Of a stretch of 64,000 nucleotides of DNA, positions 18,001 through 24,000 are shown piece by piece. The stretch's first letter is position 1, and each line of letters opens with the position of its first letter. The DNA is from Escherichia coli (GTDB lineage: Bacteria > Pseudomonadota > Gammaproteobacteria > Enterobacterales > Enterobacteriaceae), in NCBI RefSeq assembly GCF_030384885.1, contig NZ_CP128614.1; one strand, written 5' to 3'. A program made the position numbers.

Positions 18001-21000
18001 ATCTCCAGGATACAACATCCATCAGTGACCATCAGCACGACAGCGATGAACCGCTGAATGAGCACGATCCGTTACAGTTCCACTCGCACGGTAATGTGCA
18101 TCACCTCAATGCCGATCATTCCCACGATCTGAACAAACTCTTCACGCTGACTGCTTTGCAGGCCTGGAACGCAGGCATGCGGGCGACGTTCGCGCTAAGT
18201 TCAGAACAAATCCTGCGGGTCCCCCAGGCGACCCCCGAACGCCCTCCGAGATCCCTGATTGCGTAATAACTTCCGTTAATTCGTTATTATTCAATTTGTA
18301 AGGGTTTTTATGAATACCAGCCTCGATATACAGGGCCGGTTGAACGGTGGCCTGCTTTCAGCTCAGGCGCGTTCGGCTTGTCTGTTTTTCCTGTTGTTAC
18401 TGCTTTTCTACAGCCAGGGCGCGTATGCGCACGACGTGGCGGAGGGCGACAAAGGGTACATCCAGGAAATCACCGGGATTATCGTCAATGCACAAAGGAG
18501 CGTGGGTAACGCTGGAAGGTAATGTTATCAGCCAGCAGGATGAGTGGTACACCTTCCGTGATCCAACCGGCACCATCAAAGTGCGCATTCCTCAGAAGGT
18601 CTGGAACGGGCAGCACTTCGATGCTCAGGATTTGGTGCGGGTGAGTGGGCAGGTAATTCATGAGAATGGTGCTACGAGCCTTGATGTAGGTGTGATTAGC
18701 AAGCCCTGAATTCCATCAAAACAAGCGGTACTTATAATAACCTTCATCCCGAGCGTGATAGCGCATCACAACTTCGAGACTTTCTTCAAGGAATATATAC
18801 GTCTGGGCATAGGACTCTCCATTATGAGAGTCCAACTAATGAGGGCAATGTATCGATCTGAGTATGAGATTGCTTTGTGGACTAAGGCAGAAATGAGCCT
18901 TCTAAGGCTGATCCTTCTTCAAGATTTTGATGAGTTCGATTTGCTGTTGTTCAGACATGTTAGCGATCAGGCGAGCTAACTCTGCAGTCGTTTCGTTCTC
19001 GCAAAAGAAGTAGTTGATCGGTACCCCAAGTTCATCAGCCATACGCTTAAGAGTATCAATGTCAGGAGTATGTCTCCCCTTCTCGTAGTGGTTCATGCGG
19101 CCACTCGCTGAACTTGGTTCCATGCCAATTCGGATACCCAATTCTTTCTGAGTGATCCCGGCATACGTTCTGGCAGCCTTGAGCCTGTCAGGTATCGGAT
19201 TTGGGTGAGCCACGAAGTCATCATCATTGCCTTAGAGTACTTAGATTGTCTAAGTTTCGTTGGTTTCTGTATACTTAGCAATTCTAAGTTTACTGATTTG
19301 GAAGTTTTAACAATGAAGTCTGCAGTGAAGTTGCACCCTTATATTTATAATTTGTTGATAGAAAGAGATTTTGATGAGTTCGGTGCTATCCATCTCAGGG
19401 ACGCTTTGCTGAAGATTACAGATTCATATGCTGATGTAACTGAAGCCAGAAAATTCATCCGCCGACAACTTATCCGGCTGGAGGCATTGGGCTTCATTTT
19501 TAAAATTGAAAATAGCAGTGGGCGTCCGAAGATCCTGTACAAGAAAACGGAAAGCTTCTATTCAACGACTTTCATACCAAGAAAATTGCCAAGTAACTCG
19601 CGCCTGGCTGCTGTGCCCGAAAATGTGAAACTACACGTTTTGGATGTCGATCTGTTCTTAATGGACCTGACAAAAGAAAAAACTGTCCATGAGGCCAAAC
19701 TTGCCGTCATTCTGAGTGAAATTGAAGAGTACCAGTCTCTTATGGAGCGTTTTCCCAGTAGACGGAGCTGCTTTATTGAACTCCATCAGCACGCAAAAAA
19801 TCAGTCCGCCGCTTTGCTTGGCAGGGTTACTGCTTTATCGAAAGTGCTAGGTCAGCTTAGCGATGGGGATTGCGCATGCTGAGGGAGTGGCAGAAAGAAT
19901 GCTCTGAAGCAGCGCTAGAAAAATATCAATCTGGATCGCCGCACTTTCTATGTCTTGCCAGTCCTGGTGCAGGAAAAACCGTGATGGCTGCTGAAGTTGC
20001 CAGGAAAATGCTGGAGCTGAAACTAGTAGATCTCATCCTATGCTTTGCACCTTCATCTGTGGTGGTTGCATCCATTGAAAGTACTTTCTCCCATATTCTT
20101 CAAAGGAACTTTAATGGTGGTCTTGGTGCAGTAGGTGCTGCGTATACTTATCATAGCTTGATGTATTTCGATAAAAGCTTCTGGAAGTCTTTGCAGATGC
20201 ATCGGGTATTAGTTATTTTCGACGAAATCCATCATTGTTCTGGCGATTCGCTGGATAATGCTAATGTGTGGGGCGGGGAAATCCTTTCTCAAGTTCAGCA
20301 ATGTGCCAGTTACTCTTTGGCACTAACAGGGACTCCATGGCGAACTGATAGTACTCCTATAGTGCTCTCAAATTACACTGATCCGGATGGGGAGATCTGT
20401 TGTGACTATGTATATGGACTACATGAGGCTATTGTCGATGGTGTTTGTCGTAAACCTAAAATCGCCTTGATAAACAGCAATAATTTAGTATATTCATCAA
20501 AGGATAATGTTCAGTTTTTTGGTTCCATCACAGATTTCCTGAGTGAAACCGTTGCTTCGTATCAATCAATAATTTGGCATCCAGAAGCAATGAAGTATGT
20601 ACTAGAAGCTGGATGTAAAAAACTTAACGAAATACGCAAAGTTAATTCTGATGCGGGTGGTTTAGTTGTTGCTTCTTCAGTCGAGCATGCATATAAGCTA
20701 CTGAATATTTTGGAAAAAGAGTTTGACCAAACAGCGATAATTGTGACGTACCACGATCGAGATGCTTTGGCTAAGATTGGATATTATCGGCAATCAACTA
20801 CAGAATGGATTGTTAGCGTTGGTATGATTAGTGAGGGCACAGATATCCCCAGGCTACAGGTCTGCTGCCATTTGAGTTCTGTCAAAACAGAACTTTACTT
20901 CAGACAAGTATTGGGCAGGATATTACGGGTGAATCAGAGTGAAAATCAGGAAGCCTGGTTATTTACAATGGCTACAAATGAACTGACATTATTCTCAAAC

Positions 21001-24000
21001 AGATTGGCCGAAGATTTACCTGAAGATTATAAAGTTATGCAACAACAATCTGATGATTGGTCATTCCCTACAATTGATTCTCAGTCTATGCCTCCAGAGT
21101 TTGTGCGGAAAAATGGTATATCTAAAATAAAAGAGATTGATTTAGAAATGGATATTGGTGAAATAACTACATCGTCACCTACGATTTCAAGTCAAACAAA
21201 ACAACTAAAAATGGGCTCAATGCATCAACAAGTGATAGATGCATTTTTATTTTCAATTATTTAATTTTTTATCGTATGCCGTAAACGGTTTGAAGAGTGA
21301 ATTAACGGCATTGATTCAAGTTAAAACTGGCTAGTTACGGCCAGTTTCCCTAGGGAACTATAGTTTTTATCTATACAACGTGAAGCTAAAGAAGAGTGAA
21401 TGATTGCCTTTTTTGTAACTAATTTTATTTTTAACTCCTCAAGCTTGTCTTTTAATGATTTATTTTCCTCTTCAAGAAATGATATTTTTACTAGTGATGC
21501 CCTTAATAAGTCATTGAGCTGGTGATGTTCTGAAGCCATTTGACGGAGTCTTTTTCGAGGGGGCTGAAAGCGTTCTGCAGGCACTGTTAGTGGTATAAAA
21601 TATGCCCACGACTGTATTCCTGTTGTGTGGTAATTCCTCAATGAAAAGAAGTGAATGCTTATTTTATTCTTACTATCTGGCCTTGTTTTAAAGCTTTTAT
21701 CTCTTGTTCCAGCGCTTCAATACGTGAACGTGCAACCCTCAGCGCATGGGAGAGCTGATGATGTTCAGCCGCCATCACTTCCAGACGACGTTTCATATCA
21801 GATGCTTTTACACGGTACTGAATTTTCACTTTACGCTCTTGGTTAAATTTATGTCGCAGGGCTTCCTGTGACTGATGAGTTAGCCTGCCCTGAGGGGATA
21901 TTTTTAACCGCAGAATTTCCTCCTGGACGCGTGACTTAAATGCCCCGTAGTAGTAACAGGTTCCGTTTCCCAGCCCGGCCTCCTCTTCAACAGCACGCAC
22001 CGACAACTTTCGGTTGTCAGGGATACGTTTTGTCTGACCATCAAGGATCCGTTGTAGTGCAGCTTCAAGTTTAAGGAGTGTATTTTCTGATTTGCTCATA
22101 CGCCTGTCACCTTAATGGGATGTTCATATGTGTCATAGCCAATCCCATGATCCTGCATAACCCGTTCCGCAGCCCGGATTTGAGTGATACAGTGGGCATA
22201 CTCACTGATGCTTAGATCCGTCTGTTGCTGAAGATACATTATCAAAGCATTATGACGTTGCTGCCACCACATGGCCTTATCCGTATCGATAATGCTTCCA
22301 CCGCTACGACAATCCACGCAGAATGCAGGGTTGACCACACCATCCATATCGCAGTCATAGCCGTTTTTGCAGTAACTATGTAGCGTTCCATGCAAAGTAA
22401 GTCGTTTTTCCCTGACCAGTCGATAGAGATTATCCCAGCTACTGTAGATCACAGGCTTATCATTACGCATAGCTAGAATGGCTTTGCCAAAACTTCCGCT
22501 GAGTTGACTATCCCCGTTAAACCAGCTGTCAAAAAGACTAGTTGTCTGTTCGAGCCTTGCTTCATTCAGTAATTTAATCAGTTCGCTGTCCACCTGTATT
22601 GATTGTAGCCGTGCTTCAACAGCACCGTTCCCATACCATTCACTCATTCGCAGGCTGAGGTGTTTAAACTGTTGTTTGATTGCGATGGGGTGTCCGAGCT
22701 GGTTACGTACGGCAAAGCAGGCGAAAGTTCTTCGAAACTGATGGGTTAAAAGGGGCCAGGCCTCTCCTGTTCTGATCTTATCTTCTATAGCCCCCCTGTC
22801 CCGAGGGTTAAGCTGACGGCACTCTGCGAGTGCCTGTTTATCAACAATAGCACCCACATGTCTGGAAAAATTTTTTAAACGGTCGTTCCACTTGCTGCGT
22901 GAAATGAGGACAGGCAGGTTTTTTCTTTGGTACTGGCTGAGCCACAGATTTCCTGCTGTCTCAGTAAGCGTATCAGACTGCCCTGGGTCGTTGCTGTGAA
23001 CCGCTATTTTTAACAGCTGTTCACGAGCACACGCGCTGAGAGCCGTCGCAAGCGATATGGCTTTTTCAACAATAGGGCTTGCCAGCCATTCTTCATTTTT
23101 TTTCCCGGCAGCCAGTTTGTGGGTTGCTGCGCTTACCGAGTGAAAATCCTGTCCATTAATGGTGTAGGTGTGAAAACTGTCCACATGCAATTCAAATATT
23201 TCGCTGACTCTCATTCCTGTGAAAGCACCACAACAAATAAAACAGGCTGCCTGAAGTTGAGCACGAAAACTGACGAGCCAGTTACCGTCTGCTGCGCTAC
23301 TGGGCAGGAGTCCTGTTCCGGTGAGATGGTTTTTGATTAGGGTATTTTGCGACCGGGGTGTCGCTTTATTAATTTCTTCTACATATTCTTTTGAACATAA
23401 TTTCCCCTGTCCGTTAGTCAGCCATGTCCACTTACCTGTAAGTATTTTATAGTCAACAACGGCACGCCCGATATCATAATTAGACTGCAGTTCACGTTCT
23501 AGCTGGGCTAGTGTTTCTCTGTGGGGCCATGCAAGCTCGACAAGTCTAACGGCTTCTCCATAGAGTATATTTGCTATTGCCTGGGGGATGGCCAGGGTTT
23601 GCCTGTGTTCTGCTTTATTTTTAGCTGACAGTTTTTTGGCTGTCTGTTTGTAGTTCAGCTGTGGCAGGTCAAGCTGGAAAGGAAGCCATGAATTTAGTCT
23701 TTCGACTGACTGTAGTGCAGAGAAAATCAATTCAACAGTTCGCTTACTAAAGGCTTCACGTTCGATATCGTTTTGTAGCTTTTGCCATATCTCGGGTTTA
23801 TTGAAGTCAGACAGGCACGTGCTGCCACTATGCAAAAGCGTTAATAAACTCTTTTTTAACCCTAAATTGAATCGGGAGGTCAGTGTTGACAGCTTGCAGT
23901 CTTTTCCGGAGTGATAATTTTGCTCAAATATCCATCCATATACGATAAGCTTCGCCTGAAGGAGAAGCGCCGGAGCGGACTCCAAATAGGTAAAGTTAAA

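What the first reader, a model, noticed from the sequence alone, without database searches (positions are those of the whole stretch)
19313..21264. Small protein plus short SF2 helicase operon, divergent from an XRE regulator
A roughly 190-aa protein of unknown family is translationally coupled (ATGCTGA overlap) to a 460-aa helicase with Walker A ASPGAGKT, DEIH and TGTP motifs. The helicase is far shorter than Type III restriction or Hachiman-type helicases. Its position between CBASS and the recombinases, with a divergent Cro/CI-like regulator (18902-19213), is typical of defence or phage-interference modules.
Basis: partly seen in the sequence, partly recalled or inferred. Interest (0 to 1): 0.6.

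Follow-up and report, generated by a model that had tools for sequence, protein, structure and literature searches.

The report
Controller-regulated VspR–helicase cassette of mobile islands
The small protein is a VspR-type DNA-binding regulator that is always encoded just ahead of this short helicase and opposite a controller-type repressor. The three genes form a portable cassette found beside the mobility genes of several unrelated kinds of mobile genomic island, and its function has not been studied.

Summary
A 189-aa ORF (19313-19882) overlaps by 7 nt (ATGCTGA) a 462-aa SF2 helicase (19876-21264) with intact motifs, and both lie divergent from a 103-aa XRE gene (18902-19213).

The partner is not of unknown family. 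It belongs to the VspR family (Pfam VspR_N/VspR_C): a winged-helix domain plus a helical hairpin, like the Vibrio cholerae VSP-I repressor VC0177. The XRE is a C.Csp231I-type controller protein, with two perfect palindromic operators in the 99-bp intergenic region.

In 80 species-representative genomes, every helicase homologue with upstream DNA has a VspR gene no more than 5 nt away (55 of 83 with the same 7-nt overlap). All 80 also have a divergent controller-type XRE.

The trio sits next to the mobility genes of unrelated elements: type I-F3 CRISPR-associated Tn7-like transposons, SE/GInt four-recombinase elements (as here, a 20.4-kb insertion in an IncHI2 plasmid) and GMT islands. It is exchanged between them as a cassette.

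It matches no known defence system, has no effector domain and is absent from 50,697 phage genomes. The best reading is a controller-gated regulator-plus-DNA-motor module of integrative elements. A stand-alone defence role is not excluded. The helicase's task is unknown.

The parts
18902..19213 (-). Controller-type XRE regulator (103 aa), C.Csp231I / CAST I-F3b Xre (RtbC) family
   Evidence: PADLOC Control_protein 3.8e-25 over 93 of 101 positions. PDB C.Csp231I 3lfp E 1.4e-17. 94-97% aa identical in the pPSV, K. oxytoca and Buttiauxella elements. A divergent controller-type XRE is present in 80 of 80 related loci.
19240..19254 (.). Operator 1, perfect palindrome CTTAG-ATTGT-CTAAG, nearer the XRE start; overlaps the -35 of a predicted XRE promoter and of the predicted vspR promoter
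   Evidence: The identical sequence occurs at the same place in 30 of 83 related loci, including Vibrio, Moritella and Aliivibrio.
19274..19288 (.). Operator 2, perfect palindrome CTTAG-CAATT-CTAAG, 34 bp from operator 1; overlaps the predicted -10/start region of the vspR-helicase promoter
   Evidence: There are only two exact or 1-mismatch copies in the 64-kb window, both in this intergenic region.
19313..19882 (+). VspR-family protein (189 aa): N-terminal winged helix (about aa 1-90) plus a long C-terminal helical hairpin (aa 106-183)
   Evidence: Homologues carry Pfam VspR_N and VspR_C. AlphaFold model pLDDT 91.8. Best PDB folds are PadR and MarR. 230 family representatives at 50% identity.
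19876..19882 (+). 7-nt start/stop overlap ATGCTGA (translational coupling)
   Evidence: The same 7-nt overlap occurs in 55 of 83 loci, and all 83 have the two genes no more than 5 nt apart. It explains the C-terminal Cys seen in a third of family representatives.
19876..21264 (+). SF2 helicase/translocase (462 aa): two RecA-like lobes (aa 1-390), a disordered tail (394-448) and a conserved terminal helix (449-458); no nuclease or other effector domain
   Evidence: Pfam ResIII and Helicase_C. phrog_16 5e-39. RadD model 55 bits against a cutoff of 720. Structure model. Nearest folds are RadD, XPB/Ssl2, SauUSI and HsdR motors. Motifs are invariant across homologues.
21343..21359 (+). Terminator-like hairpin followed by a T-run, 79 nt after the helicase stop
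   Evidence: This is a consensus scan only.
21659..27345 (-). Context: four-gene recombination operon of the carrying element (459-aa tyrosine recombinase, 591 aa, 720 aa, 146-aa coiled-coil protein), SE/GInt class, convergent with the helicase
   Evidence: Class as described in PMC10214605 and PMC5385486. Only 38-49% aa identical to the operons of elements whose trio is 83-97% identical.
8720..29080 (.). Context: the whole 20.4-kb integrative element carrying CBASS, the trio and the recombinase operon, inserted in an IncHI2 backbone gene
   Evidence: Empty-site comparison with pSTM6-275. Terminal imperfect inverted repeats.

Best explanation
The three genes form one portable cassette that integrative mobile elements carry next to their mobility genes.

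Shown, or shown for close homologues:
- The XRE is a controller (C-protein) type repressor. It binds two palindromic boxes between the divergent genes. Homologues in CRISPR-associated transposons autoregulate through such boxes. The 68-aa Xre of Vibrio parahaemolyticus VPaI-7 represses the divergent VPA1392 promoter.
- The small protein is a winged-helix regulator of the VspR family. The V. cholerae member binds island DNA and represses island genes.
- The helicase is an intact, effector-less SF2 DNA motor of the RadD/XPB/HsdR type, always made in tight coupling with the VspR protein.

Inferred:
- When the element enters a cell that lacks the controller, the vspR-helicase operon is expressed in a burst. 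It is shut down as the controller accumulates (zygotic induction, as in restriction-modification control).
- The VspR dimer recognises sites on the element and recruits the motor, perhaps through the helicase's conserved C-terminal helix.
- The motor then remodels or clears protein-DNA complexes on element DNA, such as silencers, repressors or recombination/transposition complexes. This would set whether the element and its cargo are quiescent or active.

In CRISPR-associated transposons the same controller has additionally been wired to the tniQ-cas operon.
For: - Invariant pairing. A VspR ORF lies directly upstream of the helicase in 84 of 85 loci. The genes are no more than 5 nt apart in 83 of 83 loci and share a 7-nt overlap in 55. 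The pairing also holds for VspR relatives at only 23-28% identity.
- Controller gene. One is present divergently in 80 of 80 loci: 59 of the roughly 100-aa C.Csp231I type and about 20 of the 68-aa C.AhdI type.
- Operators. The pair found in the window is identical in 30 of 83 loci. A third copy lies upstream of tniQ in transposon loci. This reproduces the experimentally tested sites of Petassi et al. (bioRxiv 10.1101/2020.07.02.184150).
- Experimental support from relatives. VpxR (VPA1391) represses the divergent VPA1392 promoter (PMC12150760). VPA1393 is an SF2 helicase with the same strain distribution as VPA1391 (PMC11961994).
- Position. The trio lies directly after tnsABC or tniQ-cas in 17 loci. 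It lies after or against SE/GInt operons in at least 25 loci and after GMT genes in 5. In L081 it is the only thing between tnsABC and tniQ-cas.
- Cassette behaviour. Trio proteins are 83-97% identical between elements whose recombinases are only 38-49% identical.
- No effector domain, and a dsDNA-motor fold.
- The VspR fold is that of a PadR/MarR-like dimeric regulator. VspR is a repressor of VSP-I genes (PMC10653837).
- Absent from 50,697 phage genomes.
Against: - No experiment addresses the helicase or the complex. The remodelling role is inference only.
- In the window and in other SE/GInt loci there is no third controller operator upstream of the recombinase operon. There is only a 2-mismatch site at 27467. 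A link to mobility control is therefore not visible here.
- Type I-F CRISPR-associated transposition works in E. coli without any such helicase (literature summarised in PMC12452197).
- V. cholerae VSP-I keeps VC0176 and VspR, apparently without a helicase (PMC12409362). VspR can therefore act alone.
- In about 36 of 84 loci no mobility gene was recognised within the 10-kb flanks, and the immediate neighbours are defence systems.
- In some Vibrio loci the neighbouring four-gene element appears to be a separate, cargo-less insertion.
Confidence: 0.45

Rival explanations
1. A stand-alone anti-phage or anti-plasmid defence system. A controller protein gates a two-protein machine, with VspR-like protein as DNA sensor and helicase as motor, that interferes with invading DNA. 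This would parallel controller-gated restriction systems.
For: - The trio is always found in islands whose other cargo is defence: CBASS here; SIR2/TrlF, type I R-M, BREX, AAA_13 and ubiquitin-like systems elsewhere.
- Controller proteins are classically attached to restriction systems.
- The cassette moves between elements like cargo.
- The helicase fold is closest to restriction motors as well as to RadD and XPB.
Against: - There is no nuclease, NADase, membrane or other effector domain in either protein.
- PADLOC-DB 2.0 gives only weak partial hits to generic helicase components: PbeA 1e-8, DinG, Cas3, Type III/IV REase.
- The position is fixed at the mobility-gene end and inside the core of CRISPR-associated transposons, unlike ordinary cargo.
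- The one studied family member, VspR, is a transcriptional repressor.
Confidence: 0.25
2. A dedicated regulator of the adjacent defence cargo, as in V. cholerae VSP-I. The VspR-like protein would repress the neighbouring CBASS operon. The helicase would sense phage DNA or DNA damage and relieve the repression.
For: - VspR (VC0177) represses the VSP-I CBASS operon (PMC10653837, PMC9674212).
- The window's cargo is a CBASS with the same gene order.
- In many loci the downstream cargo is co-directional with the helicase.
Against: - The trio is conserved at 83-97% identity next to completely different cargo: SIR2/TrlF in pPSV, an arsenic-resistance cluster plus an AAA ATPase in E. coli, R-M in Vibrio.
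- In the window the CBASS operon is on the other side of the XRE, on the opposite strand to vspR, and separated by 2 kb of extra DNA.
- In V. cholerae, loss of vspR did not change CBASS-dependent phenotypes under the conditions tested.
Confidence: 0.15
3. A replication module for the excised circular form of the element, with a winged-helix initiator and its helicase.
For: - The helicase scores 5e-39 against the large phage 'DNA helicase' family phrog_16.
- SE elements produce circular intermediates and use a copy-out route (PMC10214605).
- Winged-helix initiators are common.
Against: - The fold is that of a monomeric RadD/XPB/HsdR-type translocase, not a replicative hexamer.
- No iterons were found. 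The only repeats are the controller operators.
- The pair is absent from phages and occurs on only 11 of 72,556 plasmids, always inside islands.
- VspR functions without a helicase in VSP-I.
- Tn7-like elements do not replicate as circles (established knowledge).
Confidence: 0.05

Closest known systems
VC0176 / VspR (VC0177) of Vibrio cholerae seventh-pandemic island VSP-I
   Same: The small protein has the same family (Pfam VspR_N + VspR_C). An HTH regulator gene lies beside it, and a CapV-DncV-Cap2-Cap3 CBASS sits in the same island. VspR is a DNA-binding repressor of island genes.
   Different: VSP-I, as described in the papers read, has no helicase after vspR. I could not read the V. cholerae sequence itself. 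Here, and in all 80 sampled genomes, the VspR gene is fused in expression to a helicase. The gene order relative to CBASS also differs.
Xre regulators of type I-F3 CRISPR-associated Tn7-like transposons (RtaC / RtbC; Petassi et al. 2020) and VPA1391-VPA1393 of V. parahaemolyticus VPaI-7
   Same: The window's XRE is the C.Csp231I-like (I-F3b) type and has the same operator sequence. In related loci the identical trio lies between tnsABC and tniQ-cas, with a third operator before tniQ. VPA1391 represses the divergent VPA1392, and VPA1393 is an SF2 helicase.
   Different: The window's element is not a Tn7-like transposon and has no third operator. The papers I could read discuss only the Xre. VPA1392 is called hypothetical, and its membership of the CAST system is stated there to be unknown.
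C.Csp231I-type controller proteins of restriction-modification systems
   Same: Sequence similarity (PDB 3lfp E 1.4e-17; PADLOC Control_protein 3.8e-25). Two palindromic boxes lie in its own promoter region.
   Different: It controls a regulator-plus-helicase operon rather than a restriction endonuclease. It is divergent from the controlled genes, not co-transcribed with them.
RadD (E. coli) and XPB/Ssl2 SF2 DNA translocases
   Same: These are the best structural and profile neighbours of the helicase core. XPB likewise works with a partner protein (Bax1, TFIIH).
   Different: The helicase scores 55 bits against a RadD cutoff of 720 and shares only about 19-22% identity. The RadD model match ends at profile position 373 of 573, so RadD's C-terminal part has no counterpart here. 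The XPB damage-recognition domain was not examined. The helicase has its own disordered tail with a conserved terminal helix.
SE (strand-biased circularizing integrative elements) and GInt islands
   Same: The carrying element has a four-gene operon: a tyrosine recombinase, two large related proteins and a small coiled-coil protein. It also shows site-specific insertion and terminal imperfect inverted repeats.
   Different: These describe the vehicle, not the cassette. The SE and GInt texts I searched contain no mention of a helicase or an Xre.

Membership tests
VspR family (Pfam PF27213 VspR_N + PF27192 VspR_C) | Match to both Pfam domains | tested here: met
   The match is indirect. The local Pfam-A library lacks these new families (one search found nothing). 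The precomputed annotation gives both domains for the 99%-identical cluster representative P0001 and for all full-length homologues, and names them.
VspR family (Pfam PF27213 VspR_N + PF27192 VspR_C) | Winged-helix DNA-binding fold with a C-terminal helical dimerisation-type domain | tested here: met
   AlphaFold model pLDDT 91.8: wHTH at aa 1-90 and helices at 106-146 and 148-183. Top PDB folds are PadR and MarR.
VspR family (Pfam PF27213 VspR_N + PF27192 VspR_C) | Binds island DNA and represses island genes | not testable with these tools
   Known only for VC0177, from ChIP and expression data cited in PMC10653837.
C.Csp231I-type controller proteins / CAST I-F3b Xre (RtbC) | Sequence similarity to C.Csp231I over the whole length | tested here: met
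   PDB 3lfp E 1.4e-17, aa 10-93. PADLOC Control_protein 3.8e-25.
C.Csp231I-type controller proteins / CAST I-F3b Xre (RtbC) | Two palindromic boxes in its own promoter region | tested here: met
   CTTAG-N5-CTAAG twice, 34 bp apart, at 19240-19254 and 19274-19288. Conserved in 30 of 83 loci.
C.Csp231I-type controller proteins / CAST I-F3b Xre (RtbC) | Controls a restriction endonuclease (R-M controllers) or the tniQ-cas operon (CAST) | tested here: not met
   The window has no adjacent REase, no tniQ-cas operon and no third operator. The feature is met in related CAST loci.
SF2 helicase superfamily | Motifs I, II, III, V and VI, and two RecA-like lobes | tested here: met
RadD (NCBIfam NF053632) | Score above the curated cutoff | tested here: not met
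   55.3 bits against a cutoff of 720.
Known anti-phage defence systems (PADLOC-DB 2.0) | Match of the component proteins to a system's models | tested here: not met
   The partner has no hit. The helicase has only weak partial hits: PbeA 1.3e-8, then 1e-4 or weaker.
Known anti-phage defence systems (PADLOC-DB 2.0) | Protection against phage | not testable with these tools
   Requires phage challenge experiments.
CBASS regulators CapH/CapP | HTH regulator paired with a CapP metallopeptidase next to CBASS | tested here: not met
   The capH hit is weak (4.3e-9) and far below the Control_protein hit. No CapP-like gene is present. The XRE is conserved next to non-CBASS cargo.
SE / GInt integrative elements (the vehicle) | Four-gene recombination operon at one end, site-specific insertion, terminal inverted repeats | tested here: met
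   Operon at 21659-27345. Precise insertion against an empty site. Imperfect inverted repeats. I did not resolve whether it is SE or GInt sensu stricto: Pfam is faint, and the RHRY-like motifs in the 720-aa protein were seen by eye only.

The most novel reading that the evidence does not exclude
The controller-VspR-helicase trio is a single, ancient, portable switch-plus-motor module shared by otherwise unrelated integrative elements: type I-F3a and I-F3b CRISPR-associated transposons, SE/GInt elements, GMT islands and VPaI-7, with VSP-I as a helicase-less derivative. The two CAST regulators thought to be independently co-opted would then both be the controller gene of this cassette. The VspR-guided DNA motor would decide whether the element, or its defence cargo, is silent or active after entering a new host.
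Probability: 0.35. Interest if true: 0.75.

Novelty: new variant of a known kind. Interest (0 to 1): 0.6.

Why it matters
- It gives VspR a previously unnoticed obligate partner. VspR is a regulator studied in pandemic V. cholerae for CBASS and virulence control.
- It shows that the Xre regulators used to explain how CRISPR-associated transposons control transposition come with a two-gene operon that has not been examined. That operon could affect the behaviour of these elements in native hosts.
- It identifies a common module in the islands that spread defence systems, including on IncHI2 mcr-9-type resistance plasmids.
- The same trio (VPA1391-1393) is among the top genomic markers of clinical V. 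parahaemolyticus.
- The cassette is small, self-contained and easy to test genetically.

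Tried and rejected
- Pfam-A, NCBIfam and PHROGs scans of the partner found nothing. The family name only emerged from precomputed annotations.
- The search for related loci with the VspR alignment failed because it had no conserved 7-10-column stretch. I used the helicase alignment instead.
- I could not obtain the V. cholerae VC0176-VC0178 sequence or the Davies 2012 paper. The VSP-I layout therefore rests on secondary papers.
- The profile search with the VspR alignment returned no named V. cholerae protein.
- A fused VspR-linker-helicase structure prediction was considered and dropped. 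The tool returns no coordinates or inter-domain error, so an interface could not be judged.
- Phage-replication origin was rejected: no VspR in phages and only distant helicases.
- A CapH-type CBASS regulator was rejected (see membership test).
- A search for a third operator near the recombinase or CBASS promoters found only a chance-level 2-mismatch site at 27467.
- Classification of the 591-aa and 720-aa recombination proteins by Pfam and NCBIfam was uninformative.

Full report
**1.

- The window has an ORF from ATG 19313 to the TGA at 19880-19882 (189 aa).
- A second ORF runs from ATG 19876 to 21264 (462 aa). The two overlap in the heptamer ATGCTGA.
It matches Pfam ResIII and Helicase_C.
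- A 103-aa XRE gene lies 99 bp upstream on the other strand (18902-19213).
- A type II CBASS (CapV, CD-NTase, Cap2, Cap3; 12249-16846) lies on one side. Four recombination genes (21659-27345) lie on the other.

**2. Where the window comes from**

- The window is 99.5% identical to the IncHI2 plasmid pMY490-mcr-9 of Enterobacter cloacae.
- More than a thousand IncHI2-type plasmids match only the flanks.
- Alignment with one of them (pSTM6-275) shows that window 8720-29080 is a single 20.4-kb insertion into a PAPS-reductase-family gene.
- The insertion has imperfect terminal inverted repeats.
- Its recombination operon has a 459-aa tyrosine recombinase, 591-aa and 720-aa proteins and a 146-aa coiled-coil protein. 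This is the SE/GInt class of integrative element (PMC10214605, PMC5385486).
- I did not resolve which of the two named groups it belongs to.

**3. The partner is a VspR-family regulator**

- Local Pfam, NCBIfam and PHROGs scans found nothing.
- Close homologues carry two recent Pfam families, PF27213 and PF27192. Annotated contigs name these VspR_N and VspR_C.
- One Vibrio plasmid record names its homologue "transcriptional regulator VspR", next to a DEAD/DEAH helicase.
- VspR (VC0177) is the repressor of the CBASS operon and other genes of V. cholerae island VSP-I (PMC10653837, PMC9674212).
- An AlphaFold model built on 61 family members is confident (pLDDT 91.8). It shows a winged helix-turn-helix (aa 1-90) and a long helical hairpin (aa 106-183).
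- Its nearest solved folds are PadR and MarR regulators.
- The family has 230 representatives at 50% identity, all about 170-190 aa.

**4. The XRE is a controller protein**

- It matches the PADLOC restriction-modification control-protein model at 3.8e-25.
- It matches the solved C.Csp231I controller at 1.4e-17.
- The intergenic region holds two perfect palindromes, CTTAGATTGTCTAAG and CTTAGCAATTCTAAG, 34 bp apart. They overlap predicted divergent promoters.
- These are the only exact or 1-mismatch copies in the 64-kb window.

**5. The helicase is a bare motor**

- The structure model has two RecA-like lobes (aa 1-390), a disordered tail, and a short terminal helix that is conserved in sequence.
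- Its nearest structures are RadD, XPB/Ssl2, SauUSI and HsdR motors, and SNF2-type translocases.
- It fails the curated RadD threshold by a wide margin: 55 bits against 720.
- It has only weak partial hits in PADLOC.
- It has no nuclease or other effector domain.

**6. Comparative evidence**

The helicase alignment retrieved 500 relatives in one-genome-per-species contigs. The best 80 were kept. They are mostly Vibrio, Photobacterium, Aliivibrio, Shewanella, Moritella, Colwellia and Psychromonas, plus some Enterobacteriaceae.

- A VspR-like ORF lies directly upstream on the same strand in 84 of 85 loci analysed. The single exception has no upstream DNA.
- The helicase start lies within 5 nt of the VspR stop in all 83 scored loci. 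The same 7-nt overlap occurs in 55 of them.
- Three VspR relatives at only 23-28% identity are also followed by this helicase.
- All 80 loci with enough upstream DNA have a small divergent ORF, nearly all of them controller-type XREs. In 59 it is the roughly 100-aa C.Csp231I type and in about 20 a 68-aa type.
- These are the two classes that Petassi et al. described as the Xre regulators of I-F3b and I-F3a CRISPR-associated transposons.
- The operator pair found in the window is identical in 30 of 83 loci across families. Transposon loci have a third copy in front of tniQ. This matches the sites those authors tested by gel shift and reporter assays.

**7. The neighbours**

Gene maps place the trio as follows:
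- directly after tnsA-tnsB-tnsC (13 loci) or next to tniQ-cas8-cas7-cas6 (4 loci);
- after, or convergent with, SE/GInt-type four-gene operons (at least 25 loci, including the window, pPSV, the K. oxytoca plasmid and Buttiauxella);
- after GMT-island genes (5 loci).

In L081 the trio is the only thing between tnsABC and tniQ-cas. The other neighbours are defence cargo: type I R-M most often, then CBASS, BREX, SIR2/TrlF, AAA_13 and ubiquitin-like systems.

The cassette is exchanged between elements. Its three proteins are 83-97% identical between the window and three other elements, while the recombination proteins of those elements are only 38-49% identical. A fragment of a second srap/ginD-like gene sits at the junction (21321-21641).

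The VspR gene is absent from 50,697 phage genomes. The helicase has only distant phage relatives.

**8. Experimental anchors from relatives**

- In V. parahaemolyticus VPaI-7 (an I-F3a transposon), the Xre VPA1391 (VpxR) autoregulates and represses the divergent gene VPA1392. H-NS, ToxR and LeuO also silence VPA1392. The authors call VPA1392 hypothetical and of unknown relation to the transposon (PMC12150760).
- VPA1393 is an SF2 helicase (COG SSL2) with exactly the same strain distribution as VPA1391 (PMC11961994).
- A gene annotated vspR is the top marker of clinical isolates in another pan-genome study (PMC13234855).
- VSP-I has the HTH gene VC0176 beside VspR, with no helicase described (PMC12409362, PMC4829181).
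- None of the texts I could search discusses the VspR-helicase operon as a unit.

**9. Interpretation**

What is shown:
- This is a deeply conserved, self-contained three-gene cassette: a controller, a VspR-type regulator and an SF2 motor.
- It is carried by several unrelated classes of integrative element and is usually adjacent to their mobility genes.

What is inferred:
- The controller gives a burst of vspR-helicase expression on entry into a naive cell, then shuts it off.
- The VspR dimer gives DNA-site specificity to the motor.
- The motor remodels protein-DNA complexes on the element.

I rate this element-control reading at 0.45.

Rivals:
- A controller-gated defence system is the main rival (0.25). 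It is favoured by the company the cassette keeps. It is weakened by the lack of any effector and by the fixed position.
- A cargo-specific CBASS regulator, as in VSP-I, is less likely (0.15) because the cargo differs while the cassette stays the same.
- A replication module is unlikely (0.05).

**10. Verdict**

The components belong to known families, but the obligate VspR-helicase coupling and the cassette's distribution appear undescribed. It is a worthwhile and easily testable lead, not an established defence system.

Noticed in passing
window 8720-29080: The whole CBASS + trio + recombinase segment is one 20.4-kb insertion into a PAPS-reductase-family gene of the IncHI2 backbone. Related elements sit in the equivalent gene of IncHI1B plasmids. 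It has imperfect terminal inverted repeats, CAGTGTAGAAATTCT / TAGTGTAGAAAAACT.
   Followed up: partly
window 21321-21641 (-): This 106-aa ORF resembles the C-terminal coiled coil of the adjacent 146-aa srap/ginD-like protein. It looks like a leftover of a second element at the helicase/recombinase junction, consistent with cassette exchange.
   Followed up: partly
window 16917-18896: About 2 kb is present here but absent from the otherwise 89-96% identical K. oxytoca element. It holds a HipB-like HTH gene (17297-17593, minus strand) and two ORFs of unknown function (17868-18266 and 18347-18709).
   Followed up: no
window 9085-10191 and 10690-11913 (-): Two proteins (368 and 407 aa) downstream of Cap3 have no family match in NCBIfam. 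They are conserved with the K. oxytoca element and could be part of, or accessory to, the CBASS cargo.
   Followed up: no
L003, L004, L009, L010, L031: The gorA-rlmJ locus is a recurrent attachment site for trio-carrying elements in E. coli, Citrobacter, Buttiauxella and Vibrio tasmaniensis. The E. coli and Citrobacter copies have lost or scrambled the recombinase operon (IS insertions) but keep the trio. In E. coli 14EC033 an IS2 separates vspR from the helicase.
   Followed up: partly
L015, L017, L020, L025, L047, L070: A cargo-less four-gene SE-type module is flanked by a bcp (peroxiredoxin) fragment on one side and a full bcp on the other, with the trio just beyond. This suggests tandem or nested insertions at one hotspot.
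   Followed up: no
L024, L028, L040, L050, L051, L059, L062, L072: In one group of Tn7-like/CAST elements the helicase is followed by a second, only weakly related SF2 protein of about 820 aa. After it come two small conserved genes and a type I R-M system.
   Followed up: no
window 19876-21264 and database homologues: The helicase is widely mis-named 'diguanylate cyclase' or 'predicted HKD family nuclease' in public records. In pMY490-mcr-9 it is annotated as a truncated diguanylate cyclase.
   Followed up: partly
window 27467-27481: An operator-like sequence, CTTAGTTATGTTTAG (2 mismatches), lies about 120 bp upstream of the first recombinase gene. Sites of this quality occur at chance frequency in the island, so it is only a lead.
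   Followed up: partly
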